Origin: a virus
Length of the DNA stretch: 14,833 nucleotides
Virus genome (UHGV): UHGV-0120089
Direction: 5' to 3' (one strand)
Of the stretch, positions 241 to 6,854 are shown piece by piece. Position numbers and translations under genes: made by a program. Every line of letters starts with the position of its first letter. Position 1 is the first letter of the stretch. The notes under the pieces are model-generated. The model had not been told where the DNA came from, ran no database searches, and worked only from the letters and a program-made list of their open reading frames with translations.

Positions 241-480
241 ATGCCCCGAGACTACGACATTCCATATGCTTTCACGCTAGCCATCACACCAAACGCCAGA
301 GGTGTGCAGGTCGTCGCCACATCAGTATTCCGCCGTGAACTACACAAGCTTAATCACGACTGGACTCTGCAGCGCTGCAATGAGTGGATAATTAGCAGGC
401 AGACGTTCTTCGCGGACATCACCGAAGGTGATTCAGTTGATGGTACTTACGCGCTACGCAACATGGGGAGGGTTCTCTAA
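241..480 (+). CDS. Hypothetical 79-aa protein, first gene of an SOS-box bicistron
   Basis: ORF with a strong RBS at 7 nt spacing; its stop overlaps the next start (TAATG at 478-482), implying translational coupling. No family recognised. Confidence 0.55.
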   Translation: MPRDYDIPYAFTLAITPNARGVQVVATSVFRRELHKLNHDWTLQRCNEWIISRQTFFADITEGDSVDGTYALRNMGRVL

Positions 481-800
481 TGGGATTTCCTTCACCGGCA
501 ACTGATTATGTTGAAGAACGCATTAACCTCAACCGCATATTCATACCCAATCCAGCGAACACCTTCATGATTGAGACATCGACCGGCTGCATTCTGGTTG
601 ACAGGGTGGCTAAGGTTTCGCCTGGCGATTTGGTTGCGTTCCAGATGGAAGGCAATCCCATGCTTGGAAAATGGTACCCGAAGCACCTGATGACGGATGA
701 CGGTTTGATAGAGGGTGAGCAACTGGAAGAGGTAATAGTGCTGGGTGCGGTGACGGTGGAAGTGCTGACGCTGGATGAGAAGTGGAGGCCGACTATATAG
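480..800 (+). CDS. UmuD'-like (HumD-like) protein, S24/LexA-fold C-terminal domain lacking the N-terminal cleavable arm
   Basis: N-terminus MGFPSPATDYVEERINLN matches, from memory, E. coli UmuD residues 25 onward (GFPSPAADYVEQRIDLN), i.e. it starts where processed UmuD' starts. Downstream VSPGDLVAF resembles ISDGDLLIV. The GDSM serine motif is not obvious (ETSTGC instead). No umuC-like gene follows. Confidence 0.6.
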   Translation: MGFPSPATDYVEERINLNRIFIPNPANTFMIETSTGCILVDRVAKVSPGDLVAFQMEGNPMLGKWYPKHLMTDDGLIEGEQLEEVIVLGAVTVEVLTLDEKWRPTI

Positions 801-1413: not shown

Positions 1414-2592
1414 ATGGCTATAAGCGACACAAAACTGCGTACTATTTATGGTAAACCATATTCGGGCCCACAAGAAGTGGCTGATGCTGATGGCCTCAGC
1501 GTACGAATTTCACCGAAGGGGGTCATCCAGTTCCAGTACCGCTATCGCTGGCATGGCAAGCCTAATCGACTTGGGCTTGGTCGATACCCATCCCTGTCTT
1601 TGAAGGATGCCAGACAGATCACTGCTGACTTGCGAAAGCTCTATTTCTCAGGAACGGATCCACGCACTTATTTTGAAGAGAAGGTGGAGAACTCCATGAC
1701 GGTCGCCCAGTGTCTCGACTACTGGTTCGACAACTACGTCTCTACAACTCTCAGAGAAAAGACCCAGGCACTTTACCGATCAACGGTTATGAAGCGCATG
1801 CATGACGCCTTTCCTAATCGTCCGGCATCTTCTATCACGGTTAAGCAATGGGTTGACCTGCTTACCGAAGAAGAAAGAGATAATCCACGCCGAGCAAGGC
1901 AGGTGCTAAGTCAACTAAGATCAGCAATAAGTTGGTGCATGCGGCGTCAGTTGATAGATAGTTGCGCAATTATGAGCATCCAACCAAGGGACTTCGGCTC
2001 CCGCGCTGAGGTAGGGGATCGGGTACTGTCGTATCACGAACTGGCTAAGATTTGGCTTGCTATTGAAAGAAGCCGTGCGTCTACGTCAAATAAGCTACTT
2101 CATCAGATGCTTATGCTGTGGGGGGCGAGGCTCTCAGAGCTTAGGCTGGCAACAAAGACAGAATTTGACCTGCTGGACAACGTATGGACCGTACCGAAAG
2201 AGCATAGCAAGATGGGCAATGTTATCCGCCGTCCAATCTTCGAACAAATTAAGCCTTTCCTCGAAAAGGCCATGACAACGTATAATGATGTTCTTTTCCC
2301 TGGAGAAGACATAAGCAAGCCGATCAGCATCGCTGCAGCCAACCGATTCGTAAATAGAATAAGGGGAGGGATGGATCTAGGTTACTGGCGAACACACGAT
2401 TTCAGAAGAACGCTTGTTACACGTCTGTCCGAGATGAATGTCGAGCCTCATGTTACTGAGCGAATGCTCGGTCATGAACTTGGCGGGATAATGTCAGTAT
2501 ACAATAAACACGACTGGATAGAGGCTCAGCGCAAAGTGTATGAGCTTCACGCTGATAAATTGTTCTGGCACATCAGGAGCATTTCTGATTAA
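1414..2592 (+). CDS. int: Tyrosine site-specific integrase, P4-type (N-terminal arm-binding domain plus catalytic domain)
   Basis: 392 aa. N-terminal GLSVRISPKGVIQFQYRYRWHGK is typical of the P4-integrase arm-binding (DUF4102-type) domain. C-terminus carries the catalytic signature: R in GARLSELR, HDFRRT (H-x-x-R), and LGHELGGIMSVYNKHDW (His and nucleophile Tyr). Confidence 0.93.
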   Translation: MAISDTKLRTIYGKPYSGPQEVADADGLSVRISPKGVIQFQYRYRWHGKPNRLGLGRYPSLSLKDARQITADLRKLYFSGTDPRTYFEEKVENSMTVAQCLDYWFDNYVSTTLREKTQALYRSTVMKRMHDAFPNRPASSITVKQWVDLLTEEERDNPRRARQVLSQLRSAISWCMRRQLIDSCAIMSIQPRDFGSRAEVGDRVLSYHELAKIWLAIERSRASTSNKLLHQMLMLWGARLSELRLATKTEFDLLDNVWTVPKEHSKMGNVIRRPIFEQIKPFLEKAMTTYNDVLFPGEDISKPISIAAANRFVNRIRGGMDLGYWRTHDFRRTLVTRLSEMNVEPHVTERMLGHELGGIMSVYNKHDWIEAQRKVYELHADKLFWHIRSISD

Positions 2593-2764
2593 CGCCACCG
2601 TTAAGAATCCACCCCTCAACAGCTTCACGAAGGTATGATTTGGGGTGGGTTCTGACTGGCTTCGGAAATCCGTGCCGTTTGGTATAGTTCCAGATTGTCT
2701 GACGTGATGAAACACCGAGCTTGTTCATCACTTCTTTCTCAGGAATCAGGCTGGTATCGGTCAT
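2573..2764 (-). CDS. AlpA/Xis-family excisionase or transcriptional regulator
   Basis: 63 aa; the central stretch SSRQTIWNYTKRHGFPKPV resembles the winged-helix motif of AlpA-family proteins (e.g. LSRSTIYRLIKEGKFPKPI). Convergent with int, 3' ends overlapping by 20 bp. Confidence 0.75.
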   Translation of the reverse strand: MTDTSLIPEKEVMNKLGVSSRQTIWNYTKRHGFPKPVRTHPKSYLREAVEGWILNGGVNQKCS

Positions 2765-2824
2765 CTTAATTCTCCAGGCAAAAATAAACCGCCATATAGC
2801 GGCTCTATCAGATATGAACAGGCC

Positions 2825-3103
2825 TCATCGAGTGTGAGGCTGTATGATTCCATGGTTACCTCTGCTTTTTGAACGCATGTCACGTAACTTCTTAATGTGT
2901 TCTGCCGTTTCGATCTCTTCTGCTATCCGATCTGCATCAGCTTTATTCACAGGTTCAAAGTCATGATTAAAGCGGAACATGCTGGCGATACATGTTCTGC
3001 CTTTTCGGATGTAGTGAACTTTGTTGTGGGTAGAACGCAGGATTTTGCAGGGAGTGCCGTGGTGGTCGACGTACCAGGTGTTAGGAAAAATGATTCTGAA
3101 CAT
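2825..3103 (-). CDS. Hypothetical 92-aa early-left accessory protein
   Basis: ORF in operon orientation between excisionase and TraR-like genes; no family recognised. Confidence 0.5.
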   Translation of the reverse strand: MFRIIFPNTWYVDHHGTPCKILRSTHNKVHYIRKGRTCIASMFRFNHDFEPVNKADADRIAEEIETAEHIKKLRDMRSKSRGNHGIIQPHTR

Positions 3104-3150
3104 TTTTACACCTCAGTTGGACGATGTTGAAATTTGCTGCTTTGAGGCCA

Positions 3151-3369
3151 TCACAGTCCCCATTGTTTGTTCTTAAGTTCGATCTCCTCCTGGCAACTTG
3201 CACAAGTCCGACAACCCTGAACGGCCAGGCGTCTTCGTTCATCTATCGGATCGCCACACTCACAACAATGAGTGGCAGATATAGCCTGGTGGTTCAGGCG
3301 GCGCATTTTTATTGCTGTGTTGCGCTGTAATTCTTCAATTTCTGATGCTGAATCAATGATGTCTGCCAT
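3151..3369 (-). CDS. TraR/DksA-family C4 zinc-finger protein (phage TraR-like RNA polymerase-binding regulator)
   Basis: 72 aa with CxxC...(17)...CxxC (CCECGDPIDERRRLAVQGCRTCASCQ) and size typical of the TraR/DksA family. Confidence 0.8.
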   Translation of the reverse strand: MADIIDSASEIEELQRNTAIKMRRLNHQAISATHCCECGDPIDERRRLAVQGCRTCASCQEEIELKNKQWGL

Positions 3370-3417
3370 CTTTCATTAATCCCTGAATTGTTGGTTAATA
3401 CGCTTGAGGGTGAATGC

Positions 3418-3445
3418 GAATAATAAAAAAGGAGCCTGTAGCTCC
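3418..3445 (-). terminator. Rho-independent terminator-like hairpin on the minus strand
   Basis: Minus-strand reading GGAGCTACAGGCTCC followed by TTTTTTATTATT; lies between the 3468-3683 ORF and the TraR-like gene. Confidence 0.5.
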
Positions 3446-3467
3446 CTGATGATTTTGCTTTTCATGT

Positions 3468-3683
3468 TCACCGTTCCTTAAAGACGCCGTTTAACATGCC
3501 GATCGCCAGGCTTAAATGAGTCGGTGTGAATCCCATCAGCGTTACCGTTTCGCGGTGCTTCTTCAGTACGCTACGGCAAATGTCATCGACGTTTTTATCC
3601 GGAAACTGCTGTCTGGCTTTTTTGATTTCAGAATTAGCCTGACGGGCAATGCTGCGAAGGGCGTTTTCCTGCTGAGGTGTCAT
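3468..3683 (-). CDS. Hypothetical small early-left protein (71 aa from the MTPQQ start; a 93-aa form from 3749 is possible)
   Basis: ORF in operon orientation. Start is ambiguous: neither candidate ATG has a strong SD. Confidence 0.5.
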   Translation of the reverse strand: MTPQQENALRSIARQANSEIKKARQQFPDKNVDDICRSVLKKHRETVTLMGFTPTHLSLAIGMLNGVFKER

Positions 3684-3759
3684 TGAACAAGTCCCATGTC
3701 GGCAAGCATAAGCACACAGAATATGAAGCCCGCTGCCAGAAAAATGCATTCAGTGGTTG

Positions 3760-3951
3760 TCATACCTGGTCTCTCTCATCTGCTTCTGCTTTCGCCACCA
3801 TCATTTCCAGCTTTTGTGAAAGGGATGCGGCTAACGTATGAAATTCTTCGTCTGTTTCTACTGGTATTGGCACAAACCTGACTCCAATTTGAGCGAGGCT
3901 ATGTGCCATCTCGATACTCGTTCTTAACTCAACGGGAGATGCTTTGTGCAT
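3760..3951 (-). CDS. Small early-left protein, lambda orf63-like (63 aa)
   Basis: Position and size match lambda orf63 just upstream of orf60a-exo; sequence matches what I recall of lambda. Not verified. Confidence 0.6.
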   Translation of the reverse strand: MHKASPVELRTSIEMAHSLAQIGVRFVPIPVETDEEFHTLAASLSQKLEMMVAKAEADERDQV

Positions 3952-4106
3952 ACAGCCCCCCGTTTATTATTTATCTCCTCAGCCAGCCGCTGTGCTTTCA
4001 GGGGATTTCGGATAACAGAAAGGCCGGGAAATACCCAGCCTCGCTTTGTAACGGAGTAGACGAAAGTGATCGCGCCTACCCGGATATTATCGTGAGGATG
4101 CTTCAT
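3924..4106 (-). CDS. Small early-left protein, lambda orf60a-like (60 aa from the second ATG)
   Basis: ORF ending inside the exo start region; GGAG SD lies 8 nt before the second ATG (4106), giving a 60-aa product. Confidence 0.6.
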
Positions 4107-4783
4107 CGCCATTGCTCCCCAAATACAAAACCAATTTCAGCCAGTGCCTCGTCCATTTTTTCGATGAACTCCGGCACCATCTCGTCAAAACTCGCCATGT
4201 ACTTTTCATCCCGCTCAACCACGACATAATGCAGGCCTTCACGCTTCATACGCGGGTCATAGTTGGCAAAGTACCAGGCATCTTTTCGCGTCACCCACAT
4301 GCTGTACTGCACCTGGGCCATGTAAGCCGACTTTATGGCCTCGAAACCACCGAGCCGGAACTTCATGAAATCCCGGGAGGTAAACGGGCATTTCAGCTCA
4401 AGGCCATTGCCGTCACTGCATAAACCATCGGGAGAGCAGGCGGTGCGCATACTTTCGTCGCGATAGATGATCGGGGATTCAGTAACATTCACGCCGGAAG
4501 TGAATTTAAACAGGGTTCTGGCGTCGTTCTCGTACTGTTTTCCCCAGGCCAGCGCCTTAGCATTAACTTCCGGAGCCACACCGGTGCAAACCTCAGCCAG
4601 CAAGGTGTGGAAGTAGGACATTTTCATGTCAGGCCACTTCTTTCCTGAGCGGGGCTTTGCTATCACGTTGTGAACTTCTGAAGCGGTGATGACGCCGAGC
4701 CGTAATTTGTGCCATGCATCATCCCCCTGTTCGACAGCTCTCACGTCGATCCCGGTACGCTGCAGGATAATGTCCGGTGTCAT
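4103..4783 (-). CDS. exo: Lambda-type 5'-3' exonuclease Exo (Red-alpha, YqaJ fold)
   Basis: 226 aa; matches my memory of phage lambda Exo ([40 protein letters not shown]...) almost residue for residue. Start overlaps the bet stop (ATGA). Confidence 0.95.
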
Positions 4784-5565
4784 GCTGCCACCTTCTGCTC
4801 AGTGGCTTTCTGTTTCAGGAATCCAAGAGCTTTCACTGCTTCGGCCTGTGTCAGTTCTGACGATGCGCGAATGTCGCGGCGAAATATCTGGGAACAGAGC
4901 GGCAATAAGTCGTCATCCCATGTTTTATCCAGGGCGATCAGCAGAGTGTTAATCTCCTGCATGGTTTCATCGTTAACCGGAGTGATGTCGCGTTCCGGCT
5001 GACGTTCCGCAGTGTATGCAGTATTTTCGACAATGCGCTCGGCTTCATCCTTGTCATAGATACCAGCAAATCCGAAGGCCAGACGGGCACACTGAATCAT
5101 GGCTTTATGCCGTAACATCCGTTTGGGATGCGACTGCCACGGCCCCGTGATTTCTCTGCCTTCGCGAGTTTTGAATGGTTCGCGGCGGCATTCATCCATC
5201 CATTCGGTAACGCAGATCGGATGATTGCGGTCTTTGCGGTAAATCCGGCATGTGCAGGATTCATTGTCCTGCTCAAAGTCCATGCCATCAAACTGCTGGT
5301 TTTCATTGATGATGCGGGACCAGCCATCAACGCCCACCACCGGAACGATGCCGTTCTGCTTATCAGGGAAGGCGTAAATTTCTTTCGTCCACGGATTAAG
5401 GCCGTACTGGTTGGCGACGATCAGCAATGCGATGAACTGCGCATCGCTGGCATCACCTTTAAATGCCGTCTGGCGAAGAGTGGTGATCAGTTCCTGTGGG
5501 TCGACAGAATCCATGCCGACACGTTCAGCCAGCTTCCCAGCCAGCGTTGCGAGTGCTGTACTCAT
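4780..5565 (-). CDS. bet: Lambda Bet (Red-beta) single-strand annealing protein
   Basis: 261 aa; essentially identical to lambda Bet as I recall it ([66 protein letters not shown]...). Confidence 0.95.
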
Positions 5566-5570
5566 CCGTT

Positions 5571-5987
5571 TTATACCTCTGAATCAATATCAACCTGGTG
5601 GTGAGCAATGGTTTCAACCATGTACCGGATGTGTTCTGCCATGCGCTCCTGAAACTCAACATCGTCATCAAACGCACGGGTAATGGCTTTTTTGTTGGCC
5701 CCGCAGCGTTGCAAATGATCGATGCAGAGTGATTCAAACAGGTGCTGTGGAAGACCTTTTTCCATGTCGTCTGCCAGTTCTGCCTCTTTCTCTTCACGGG
5801 CGATCTGCTGGTAGTGACGCGCCCAGCTCTGAGCCTCAAGACGATCCTGAATGTAATAAGCGTTCATGGCTGAACTCCTGAAATAGCTGTGAAAATATCG
5901 CCCGCGAAATGCCGGGCTGATTAGGAAAACAGGAAAGGGGGTTAGTGAATGCTTTTGCTTGATCTCAGTTTCAGTATTAATATCCAT
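5571..5987 (-). CDS. gam: Lambda Gam (RecBCD inhibitor); 138-aa long form, with the short form starting at internal MNAYYIQ
   Basis: Near-identical to lambda Gam from memory ([61 protein letters not shown]...). Confidence 0.93.
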
Positions 5988-6085
5988 TTTTTATAAGCGT
6001 CGACGGCTTCACGAAACATCTTTTCATCGCCAATAAAAGTGGCGATAGTGAATTTAGTCTGGATAGCCATAAGTGTTTGATCCAT
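5942..6085 (-). CDS. kil: Lambda Kil (47 aa; FtsZ-targeting host-killing peptide)
   Basis: [47 protein letters not shown] matches lambda Kil from memory. It is the C-terminal 47 codons of the 89-aa track ORF and overlaps cIII as in lambda. Confidence 0.8.
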
Positions 6086-6218
6086 TTTTTGGGACTCCTG
6101 GCTGATTAAGTATGTCGATAAGGCGTTTCCATCCGTCACGTAATTTACGGGTGATTCGTTCAAGTAAAGATTCGGAAGGGCAGCCAGCAACAGGCCACCC
6201 TGCAATGGCATATTGCAT
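6054..6218 (-). CDS. cIII: Lambda CIII (54 aa; FtsH/HflB inhibitor protecting CII)
   Basis: Hand translation from ATG at 6218: [54 protein letters not shown], stop at 6054-6056; matches lambda CIII from memory. Below the ORF-track cutoff. Confidence 0.85.
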   Translation of the reverse strand: MQYAIAGWPVAGCPSESLLERITRKLRDGWKRLIDILNQPGVPKNGSNTYGYPD

Positions 6219-6290
6219 GGTGTGCTCCTTATTTATACATAACGAAAAACGCCTCGAGTGAAGCGTTATTGGTATGCGGTAACGCCGCGC

Positions 6291-6658
6291 TCAGGCGGCT
6301 TTGATAGTCATATCATCTGAATCAAATATTCCTGATGTATCGATATCGGTAATTCTTATTCCTTCGCTACCATCCATTGGAGGCCATCCTTCCTGACCAT
6401 TTCCATCATTCCAGTCGAACTCACACACAACACCATATGCATTTAAGTCGCTTGAAATTGCTATAAGCAGAGCATGTTGCGCCAGCATGATTAATACAGC
6501 ATTTAATACAGAGCCGTGTTTATTGAGTCGGTATTCAGAGTCTGACCAGAAATTATTAATCTGGTGAAGTTTTTCCTCTGTCATTACGTCATGGTCAATT
6601 TCAATTTCTATTGATGCTTTCCAGTCGTATCAATGATGTATTTTTTGATGTTTGACAT
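6291..6658 (-). pseudogene. ea10: ea10-like gene disrupted by a 1-nt frameshift near codon 11; the downstream 97-codon ORF (6291-6584) remains intact
   Basis: ATG at 6658 opens a 16-codon ORF (MSNIKKYIIDTTGKHQ*). The frame of the 97-aa ORF is open for 15 further codons upstream (YDWKASIEIEIDHDV) up to a TGA. Restoring one T at GATACGAC (about 6625-6632) joins them into 122 codons, the size I recall for lambda ea10. The total span is 368 nt, i.e. 369 minus 1. Confidence 0.6.
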
Positions 6659-6675
6659 CTATTCATATCCTCATA

Positions 6676-6704
6676 GATAAAAAATCGCCCTCACATTGGA
6701 GGGC
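6676..6704 (-). terminator. Rho-independent terminator on the minus strand (tL-like)
   Basis: Minus-strand reading GCCCTC-CAATGT-GAGGGC followed by GATTTTTTAT; sits between the N/sieB region and ea10. Confidence 0.55.
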
Positions 6705-6766
6705 AAAGAAGATTTCCAATAATCAGAACAAGTCGGCTCCTGTTTAGTTACGAGCGACATTGCTCC

Positions 6767-6794
6767 GTGTATTCACTCGTTGGAATGAATACAC
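6767..6794. repeat. Perfect 9-bp inverted repeat GTGTATTCA-N10-TGAATACAC
   Basis: Seen directly; located in the 260-bp gap upstream of the sieB-like gene. Confidence 0.45.
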
Positions 6795-6854
6795 AGTGCA
6801 GTGTTTATTCGTATGCCTGTCTTTTAACCACATCAGGCTCGGTGGTTCTCGTGT

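What the first reader, a model, noticed from the sequence alone, without database searches (positions are those of the whole stretch)
2825..3750. Non-lambda accessory cluster between the excisionase and the lambda-like orf63/orf60a/exo block
The exo-bet-gam-kil-cIII block appears lambda-identical, but the stretch where lambda carries ea22/ea8.5 holds different cargo: an unrecognised 92-aa protein, a TraR/DksA-type zinc finger (a class known to bind RNA polymerase and reprogramme host transcription), a terminator-like hairpin (3418-3445) inside the operon, and a small ORF with ambiguous start. This is a mosaic junction and a typical location for host-takeover or anti-defence morons.
Basis: partly seen in the sequence, partly recalled or inferred. 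Interest (0 to 1): 0.45.

Follow-up and report, generated by a model that had tools for sequence, protein, structure and literature searches.

The report
Known lambdoid phage exo-xis accessory genes
This stretch is the already well-studied "exo-xis" accessory region of lambda-like phages: most of it is lambda sequence, and only one small gene of a known but poorly understood family (DUF4222) replaces lambda's ea22/ea8.5, so it is ordinary.

Summary
Window 3174-6810 is 98% identical to lambda 30418-34056.

- **72-aa zinc finger (3151-3369, -):** this is lambda orf73 (65/71 aa identical). Published work on lambda Orf73 shows a TraR-type RNA-polymerase binder that shuts off rRNA and r-protein promoters and raises phage yield.
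- **Hairpin (3447-3429, -, plus U-tract):** base-for-base the predicted lambda terminator "t2".
- **71/93-aa ORF (3468-3683/3749, -):** this is orf61, 99% identical to the 933W copy. The lambda reference copy is broken by one extra A.
- **92-aa gene (2825-3103, -):** the only non-lambda part. It is Pfam DUF4222 / PHROG 285, and also occurs in phage 21, SfI, HK639, phiP27 and Klebsiella and Salmonella phages. It shares a family with the EHEC prophage regulator RgdR, at 24% identity and without the RGD motif.

Mosaic joints lie at about 3164-3185 (inside the last codons of orf73), 2874 and 2818. The whole block recurs at 97-99% identity in at least 35 sequenced phages and at least 79 IMG/VR contigs. 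Verdict: already known, low interest. The only open question is what DUF4222 does.

The parts
2825..3103 (-). 92-aa DUF4222-family gene. It is the only part of the finding that is foreign to lambda, and it occupies the slot of lambda ea22/ea8.5.
   Evidence: ORF. Pfam DUF4222 E 1.9e-19 and PHROG 285 E 3e-38. Good Shine-Dalgarno GAGGTG, with 5 nt between it and the ATG. 134 homologues across Enterobacteriaceae, all named only 'DUF4222'. Found in 57 phage records. AF2 model with pLDDT 82: small beta-barrel at residues 10-51 plus a long helix at 54-82. 24% identical to RgdR/ECs1581.
2818..2874 (.). Two recurrent left-hand mosaic joints. One is at 2818/2819, just past the DUF4222 stop. The other is at 2874, at codon ~77, and swaps the C-terminal tail of the protein.
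   Evidence: BLAST end-points in 80 IMG/VR loci and in phage records, where matches begin at query position 54 or 110. The family alignment shows a variable tail after KKLRxMR.
3164..3185 (.). Right-hand mosaic joint with lambda, inside the last ~8 codons of orf73.
   Evidence: BLAST to lambda begins at window 3174 = lambda 30418. The pairwise alignment loses identity after ...CAGGAGGA.
3151..3369 (-). orf73: a 72-aa TraR-family RNA-polymerase-binding protein, orthologue of lambda Orf73.
   Evidence: 65/71 aa identical to lambda Orf73. DIIDSA = the DxxDxA motif; C35xxC38-17-C56xxC59 zinc finger plus the extra C36 and C53 also present in lambda Orf73; R45-R46 align with the TraR RR pair that the paper numbers R48/R49. 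Function of lambda Orf73 from PMC9239242.
3373..3465 (-). 29-codon small ORF (31 codons if it starts at GTG 3471) whose coding sequence contains the hairpin. It is followed by a 7-codon ORF that overlaps the orf73 start.
   Evidence: Translation. Shine-Dalgarno AAGGA, with 8 nt between it and the ATG. In lambda this is the only 31-codon ORF of the region, matching the 31-aa 'orf2313' reported from ribosome profiling (PMC8614690). Polymorphisms show no codon-position bias, so the peptide sequence itself may not be under selection.
3419..3447 (-). Intrinsic-terminator-like hairpin plus U-tract, equal to the predicted lambda/Phi24B terminator t2. The BPROM-predicted promoter p1 overlaps it.
   Evidence: 8-pair stem, 3-nt loop, TTTTATTATT tail. 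Identical to the t2 sequence in Table 4 of PMC4195576. Conserved in 53 IMG/VR loci apart from a change at the G-U base pair of the stem and one extra T.
3468..3683 (-). orf61, the intact 71-aa form. The 93-aa reading from ATG 3749 is less likely.
   Evidence: 99% identical to the 933W ORF61 homologue. PHROG 303 E 2.5e-43. Polymorphisms are mostly at third codon positions in the core but at positions 1 and 2 in the 3686-3749 extension, and ATG 3683 becomes GTG in 4 variants. A weak Shine-Dalgarno GGGA precedes 3683 and none precedes 3749. RefSeq/PGAP aa. AF2 gives a three-helix bundle, pLDDT 78.

Best explanation
The interval is the promoter-distal end of the 'exo-xis' accessory region in the early leftward (pL) operon of a lambdoid prophage. 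In related E. coli genomes this prophage sits next to sbcB. Read in the direction of transcription (minus strand), it contains:

- **orf61.** An intact 71-aa three-helix protein. Published deletion phenotypes are mildly pro-lytic; the mechanism is unknown.
- **A short translated leader-like ORF** that contains a weak intrinsic terminator (t2).
- **orf73.** A TraR-type protein that inserts into the RNA polymerase secondary channel. It shuts down rRNA and ribosomal-protein promoters without ppGpp, diverting host resources and raising burst size.
- **A 92-aa DUF4222 protein.** This replaces lambda's ea22/ea8.5 through recombination at a joint inside the 3' end of orf73.

What is shown and what is inferred:
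- Shown: everything from 3174 rightward is lambda sequence.
- Shown for lambda, inferred here by 92% identity and conserved motifs: the Orf73 function.
- Inferred: the DUF4222 protein is most likely a small pleiotropic regulatory or adaptor protein that acts by protein-protein or non-specific nucleic-acid contacts. This rests on its SH3/Tudor-like barrel plus basic C-terminal helix, and on the one studied family member, RgdR.
For: - 98% nucleotide identity to lambda 30418-34056, with a base-level alignment.
- Orf73 is 92% identical to lambda Orf73, with DxxDxA, C4 zinc finger and RR motifs intact.
- Biochemistry and phage-yield data for lambda Orf73 are in PMC9239242.
- The hairpin is identical to the published t2, and mRNA drops downstream of it in lambda (PMC4195576).
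- Orf61 is 99% identical to the 933W copy. The literature already notes that lambda Orf61 is truncated (PMC8614690).
- DUF4222 assignment. RgdR is also DUF4222 (PMC3378721).
- The same gene order int / xis / DUF4222 / TraR / 71-aa ORF is annotated by PGAP in E. coli CUWW06 next to sbcB and in phages ev243 and 21.
- 79 of 80 IMG/VR loci with this Orf73 allele have the DUF4222 gene downstream.
Against: - No experiment exists on this exact allele.
- The last ~10 residues of Orf73, which form part of the helix that contacts the beta-Si1 insertion in TraR, differ from lambda (EEIELKNKQWGL versus EDLELISKQRGSK).
- The DUF4222 protein is only 24% identical to RgdR and lacks the RGD motif. RgdR's own mechanism is unknown, so the functional inference is weak.
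- Terminator activity of t2 has only been predicted and correlated with qRT-PCR, not measured directly.
Confidence: 0.85

Rival explanations
1. One reading: an independent, non-lambda moron or anti-defence cassette inserted between xis and the lambda recombination block, with its own terminator.
For: - The DUF4222 gene is foreign to lambda and is bounded by recurrent recombination joints.
- Terminator-like hairpins lie upstream (3447-3429) and downstream (2805-2786) of the orf73-DUF4222 pair.
- BPROM predicts a promoter p1 upstream of orf73 (PMC4195576).
Against: - About 62% of the interval is lambda sequence at 98% identity.
- The consensus scan finds no minus-strand promoter in 2400-4300.
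- All genes are co-oriented with pL and tightly packed, each with its own Shine-Dalgarno sequence.
- There are no credible PADLOC hits.
- The block is a standard alternative allele in dozens of lambdoid phages, including phage 21.
Confidence: 0.07
2. The DUF4222 protein is a second RNA-polymerase-binding host-takeover factor. Its Tudor/SH3-like barrel would dock on the beta lobe as the UvrD/PcrA C-terminal domains and the CarD RNAP-interacting domain do, working alongside Orf73.
For: - RgdR is a pleiotropic regulator with no sequence-specific DNA binding, proposed to act as a co-factor (PMC3378721).
- A TraR-family gene lies within 0-4 genes of the DUF4222 gene in divergent Klebsiella, Salmonella and E. 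coli phages.
Against: - The neighbourhood association is positional, since both genes live in the variable ea region. It is absent in the phiP27 and RgdR contexts.
- No interaction data exist.
Confidence: 0.08

Closest known systems
Bacteriophage lambda exo-xis region (orf60a-orf63-orf61-orf73-ea22-ea8.5), and the same region of the Stx phages Phi24B and 933W
   Same: Same position in the pL operon. Identical order orf60a, orf63, orf61, t2 hairpin, orf73. 98% nucleotide identity to lambda from 3174 rightward, and Orf61 99% identical to 933W.
   Different: ea22, ea8.5 and lambdap35 are replaced by a single DUF4222 gene. orf61 is intact here (A6) but frameshifted in the lambda reference (A7). 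The int/xis module is different: a P4-type integrase convergent with an AlpA-like xis, and an sbcB integration site in related genomes.
Lambda Orf73 / F-plasmid TraR (DksA/TraR family)
   Same: DxxDxA tip motif, CxxC-17-CxxC zinc finger, RR pair, ~72 aa. Carries the same two extra cysteines as lambda Orf73.
   Different: The last ~10 residues (C-terminal helix) come from a different allele. Only ~25% identical to F TraR. Lambda Orf73 did not activate the amino-acid promoters tested, unlike TraR.
RgdR (ECs1581) of EHEC O157:H7 prophage Sp7/CP-933C
   Same: Same Pfam family (DUF4222). Small (92 versus 99 aa), basic, and encoded on a prophage near the integrase end.
   Different: 24% identity. 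No RGD motif (the window has P7-N8-T9 at that position). RgdR sits in a P4/PICI-like element upstream of a primase, not in a lambdoid pL operon.
Phage 21, SfI, HK639 and ev243 early-left regions
   Same: They carry the same or a closely related DUF4222 gene (74-100% aa identity) just upstream of xis/int and downstream of the TraR-like gene.
   Different: Different int/xis modules. Some have one extra small ORF between orf73 and the DUF4222 gene (phage 21), or the 79-aa tail variant.

Membership tests
TraR/DksA family, lambda Orf73 subgroup | N-terminal DxxDxA motif that reaches the RNAP active site | tested here: met
   Residues 3-8 are DIIDSA. The motif definition is from PMC9239242.
TraR/DksA family, lambda Orf73 subgroup | C4 zinc finger CxxC-17-CxxC | tested here: met
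   C35/C38 and C56/C59 are separated by 17 residues. The extra C36 and C53 match lambda Orf73. Pfam PF01258 scores 35.2 bits against a cut-off of 24.9.
TraR/DksA family, lambda Orf73 subgroup | Arg pair equivalent to TraR R48/R49 (contacts with the rim helices and beta'Si3) | tested here: met
   ERRRL aligns with TraR EARRK.
TraR/DksA family, lambda Orf73 subgroup | Binds RNAP and inhibits rRNA and r-protein promoters without ppGpp | not testable with these tools
   Shown for lambda Orf73 (PMC9239242). The window protein is 92% identical, but its C-terminal helix differs.
TIGR02419 C4_traR_proteo (NCBIfam) | Score above the curated cut-off | tested here: not met
   54.4 bits against a cut-off of 59.7. 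It is a near miss, and Pfam and PHROG membership are met.
Lambdoid Orf61 (PHROG 303) | Full-length sequence match to the Stx-phage Orf61 | tested here: met
   92/93 identical to the 933W copy. PHROG 303 E 2.5e-43.
Lambdoid Orf61 (PHROG 303) | Homeodomain-like DNA-binding fold, as proposed in PMC8614690 | tested here: inconclusive
DUF4222 (PF13973) | Pfam gathering threshold | tested here: met
   69.4 bits against a cut-off of 27, matching profile positions 1-53 of 53.
RgdR-type LEE/motility regulators | RGD motif at residues 20-22, with R20 functionally important | tested here: not met
   In alignment A2 the window protein has P-N-T where RgdR has R-G-D. Overall identity is 24%.
Intrinsic (Rho-independent) terminator | GC-rich stem-loop followed by a U-tract on the transcribed strand | tested here: met
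   8-pair stem (4 GC pairs), 3-nt loop and a U6AUUAUU tail.
Intrinsic (Rho-independent) terminator | Measured termination activity | not testable with these tools
   The literature offers only an ARNold prediction and a qRT-PCR drop in lambda (PMC4195576). pL transcripts are N-antiterminated, which is established lambda biology.
Moron (autonomous promoter-gene-terminator insert) | Own promoter upstream of the inserted gene | tested here: not met
   There is no minus-strand sigma-70-like site in 2400-4300. The DUF4222 gene starts 47 nt after the orf73 stop.

The most novel reading that the evidence does not exclude
The DUF4222 protein, a Tudor/SH3-like barrel plus a basic helix, could be a previously unrecognised RNA-polymerase-lobe-binding host-takeover factor that cooperates with the secondary-channel binder Orf73. 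This would also explain the pleiotropic effects of RgdR on LEE expression and motility in EHEC. A secondary idea is that translation of the 29/31-codon ORF across the t2 hairpin gates how much transcription reaches orf73, the DUF4222 gene and xis.
Probability: 0.08. Interest if true: 0.5.

Novelty: already known. Interest (0 to 1): 0.1.

Why it matters
It matters little beyond correct annotation. The region is the textbook exo-xis accessory block, and its best-understood gene, orf73, has already been shown to reprogramme host transcription. The practical value is in three points:
- orf73 is missing from the RefSeq lambda annotation, which can make it look foreign.
- The intact 71-aa Orf61 is the common form, and lambda's copy is a one-base frameshift variant.
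- DUF4222 is the one component still without a mechanism. It is linked by family to an EHEC virulence regulator, so a biochemical study of any member would be useful.

Tried and rejected
- **PADLOC scan of the three proteins:** no credible hit.
- **NCBIfam:** nothing for the 92-aa and 93-aa proteins.
- **PDB sequence search:** nothing for DUF4222. For Orf61 there were only spurious DARPin matches.
- **Rfam:** no family in 2700-3850. The one match, SNORD12 at E 0.55, is chance.
- **Weak Pfam hit of the 93-aa ORF to Viral_DNA_Zn_bi:** E 0.008, below the cut-off, and it falls in the doubtful N-terminal extension. Rejected.
- **RefSeq label 'cell division protein ZapA' for 933W ORF61:** no ZapA family was returned by the Pfam or NCBIfam scans of this ORF.
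- **Strict TraR-DUF4222 gene adjacency as evidence of a functional pair:** rejected, because the spacing varies and some contexts lack TraR altogether.
- **Liu et al. 2013 ribosome-profiling paper:** could not be read. The identity of the small ORF with 'orf2313' is therefore inferred from its length alone.

Full report
**Observation.** The minus strand of 2825-3750 carries three ORFs: 92 aa at 2825-3103, 72 aa at 3151-3369, and 93 aa at 3468-3749 with an internal ATG at 3683 that gives 71 aa. A terminator-like hairpin lies on the same strand at 3447-3429, followed by TTTTATTATT. Its predicted stability is modest, -10.8 kcal/mol for the surrounding 61 nt (z -1.6).

**Relation to lambda.** BLAST of the whole window against lambda 27500-36000 gives one long match: window 3174-6810 = lambda 30418-34056 at 98.0% identity. 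The base-level alignment shows uninterrupted identity through orf63, the 71/93-aa ORF, the hairpin and the zinc-finger ORF. Identity is lost only after ...CAGGAGGA, at about window 3164-3185, inside the last eight or so codons of the zinc-finger ORF.

The lambda ORF at that place is orf73 (73 aa, L001 2893-3114). It is not annotated in RefSeq NC_001416 but is well known in the literature. The claim of a 'non-lambda accessory cluster' therefore holds only for 2825-3173. Roughly 62% of the interval is lambda's own orf61-t2-orf73.

**orf73.**
- The window protein is 65/71 identical to lambda Orf73.
- It passes Pfam zf-dskA_traR and matches PHROG 54 and the TraR chains of RNAP cryo-EM structures.
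- It keeps the DxxDxA motif (DIIDSA), the CxxC-17-CxxC zinc finger, the RR pair, and the two extra cysteines peculiar to lambda Orf73.
- Gopalkrishnan et al. 2022 (PMC9239242) showed that lambda Orf73 binds RNAP and complements a dksA-null strain. It inhibits rRNA and r-protein promoters in vitro and in vivo, slows host growth, and raises phage yield 3- to 4-fold. It did not activate thrABC, argI or rpoH P3.
- The only caveat is that the mosaic joint changes the last ~10 residues (EEIELKNKQWGL versus EDLELISKQRGSK). These belong to the helix that contacts beta-Si1 in TraR.

**Hairpin.** The sequence AAAATCATCAGGGAGCT-ACA-GGCTCCTTTTTTATTATT is identical to 't2-lambda / t2-Phi24B', predicted with ARNold by Bloch et al. 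2014 (PMC4195576). They also reported lower mRNA for genes downstream of it in lambda, and a BPROM-predicted promoter p1 overlapping it. In 53 IMG/VR relatives the hairpin is conserved apart from a change at the G-U pair at the base of the stem and one extra T.

The hairpin lies inside a small ORF of 29 codons starting at ATG 3465, or 31 codons starting at GTG 3471. This ORF has a good Shine-Dalgarno sequence (AAGGA). In lambda it is the only 31-codon ORF of the region. That matches the 31-aa 'orf2313' said to be translated in ribosome profiling (PMC8614690). I could not read the primary paper.

**orf61.**
- The 93-aa reading is 92/93 identical to the 933W ORF61 homologue.
- Lambda's annotated orf61 (61 aa) differs because the reference has A7 where the window has A6. 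This splits the gene, and explains the remark in the literature that lambda Orf61 'appears truncated' (PMC8614690).
The intact form is therefore the common one.
- The 71-aa start is favoured by four observations. Polymorphisms in the core (3468-3683) are concentrated at third codon positions, while the seven in 3686-3749 are mostly at positions 1 and 2. ATG 3683 changes only to GTG. The codon before ATG 3749 is TGA here but GGA in lambda, so the N-terminal reading frame is not conserved. A GGGA Shine-Dalgarno precedes 3683 and none precedes 3749.
- RefSeq and PGAP also aa.
- Published deletion phenotypes are mild and pro-lytic (PMC6213356). The mechanism remains unknown.

**The 92-aa gene.** This is the only truly non-lambda element.
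- It is Pfam DUF4222 (E 1.9e-19) and PHROG 285.
- It has a strong Shine-Dalgarno sequence.
- It has 134 homologues in E. coli, Citrobacter, Enterobacter and Salmonella, none with a functional name.
- tblastn finds it in 57 phage records, including phage 21, SfI, HK639, phiP27 and Klebsiella and Salmonella phages. In each context examined it lies close to xis/int at the distal end of the early-left operon.
- One family member has been studied. RgdR (ECs1581) of the O157:H7 Sakai prophage Sp7 activates LEE1/T3SS and represses motility. It binds DNA only non-specifically and was proposed to act as a co-factor (PMC3378721; PMC10877973).
- I confirmed that RgdR is DUF4222 (E 2e-23). It is only 24% identical to the window protein, which has P-N-T in place of the RGD motif.
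- An AF2 model built from 39 homologues (pLDDT 82) shows a five-stranded small barrel (residues 10-51) followed by a long basic helix (54-82), with a disordered tail.

**Mosaic structure.** Besides the lambda joint at about 3175, comparison with 80 IMG/VR loci and with sequenced phages shows recurrent joints at:
- 2818/2819, just after the DUF4222 stop;
- 2874, at codon ~77, which swaps the C-terminal tail and produces the common 79-aa form;
- 3503, 3589 and 3665, within orf61;
- 3763 and 3949, which flank orf63.

79 of 80 loci with this Orf73 allele have the DUF4222 gene downstream. At least 35 sequenced phages carry 80% or more of the interval at 97-99% identity. The full order int / xis / DUF4222 / TraR / 71-aa ORF occurs next to sbcB in E. 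coli CUWW06. No complete E. coli genome matches more than 63% of the whole window, as expected for a mosaic prophage.

**Verdict.** Host-transcription takeover by the TraR-like protein is correct and already demonstrated. A moron or anti-defence role is not supported.

Everything here belongs to a described and actively studied region. The only unknown is the biochemical role of DUF4222, for which I offer a low-probability RNAP-adaptor hypothesis. Novelty: already known. Interest: 0.1.

Noticed in passing
window 3618-3623 (minus-strand A-run in orf61); lambda 30,8xx: The lambda reference has A7 where the window and most relatives have A6, which frameshifts orf61 into the annotated 61-aa product. 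IMG/VR scans find 13 contigs with A7 against at least 120 with A6. The truncation of lambda Orf61 noted in the literature is thus a single-base insertion in a homopolymer run.
   Followed up: yes
window 3373-3471 (-): A 29/31-codon ORF with a good Shine-Dalgarno sequence overlaps the orf61 stop, contains the t2 hairpin, and ends at a TAATG that starts a 7-codon ORF overlapping the orf73 start. This is a chain of coupled small ORFs, probably the orf2313 and orf2311 seen by ribosome profiling in lambda. Translation could modulate termination at t2.
   Followed up: partly
window 1414-2764 and 2786-2805: The P4-type integrase (plus strand) converges on the AlpA-like xis (minus strand) with a 20-bp overlap, so int cannot be expressed from pL. 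A second terminator-like hairpin (minus strand, 2805-2786) lies between the DUF4222 stop and the xis start.
   Followed up: no
window 6291-6662 (-): The ea10 homologue has a divergent N-terminus with an in-frame stop at about codon 11 relative to lambda Ea10. Only a 97-aa ORF remains, so the gene is possibly pseudogenised or uses a later start.
   Followed up: partly
window 6173-6231 (-): Rfam Lambda_thermo (the cIII thermoregulator) scores 88.5 bits, confirming a lambda-type cIII leader.
   Followed up: no
window 241-800 (+) and 1-1187: A PHROG 3893 protein (79 aa) and a UmuD-like protein (106 aa) lie upstream of the integrase. This flank is not the sequence found next to sbcB in most E. coli genomes with this integrase, so the window's left end may be another mobile element or a different host.
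   Followed up: no
window 3763-3949: The orf63 slot is exchanged for unrelated alleles in about 30 of 80 related IMG/VR loci. In E. coli CUWW06 a 250-aa gene occupies it. orf63 is therefore another recombination cassette within the 'conserved' exo-xis block.
   Followed up: no
L087 (933W) 5193-5474: RefSeq labels the 933W ORF61 homologue 'cell division protein ZapA'. The Pfam and NCBIfam scans of the 99%-identical window protein returned no ZapA family, so this is likely an annotation artefact.
   Followed up: partly
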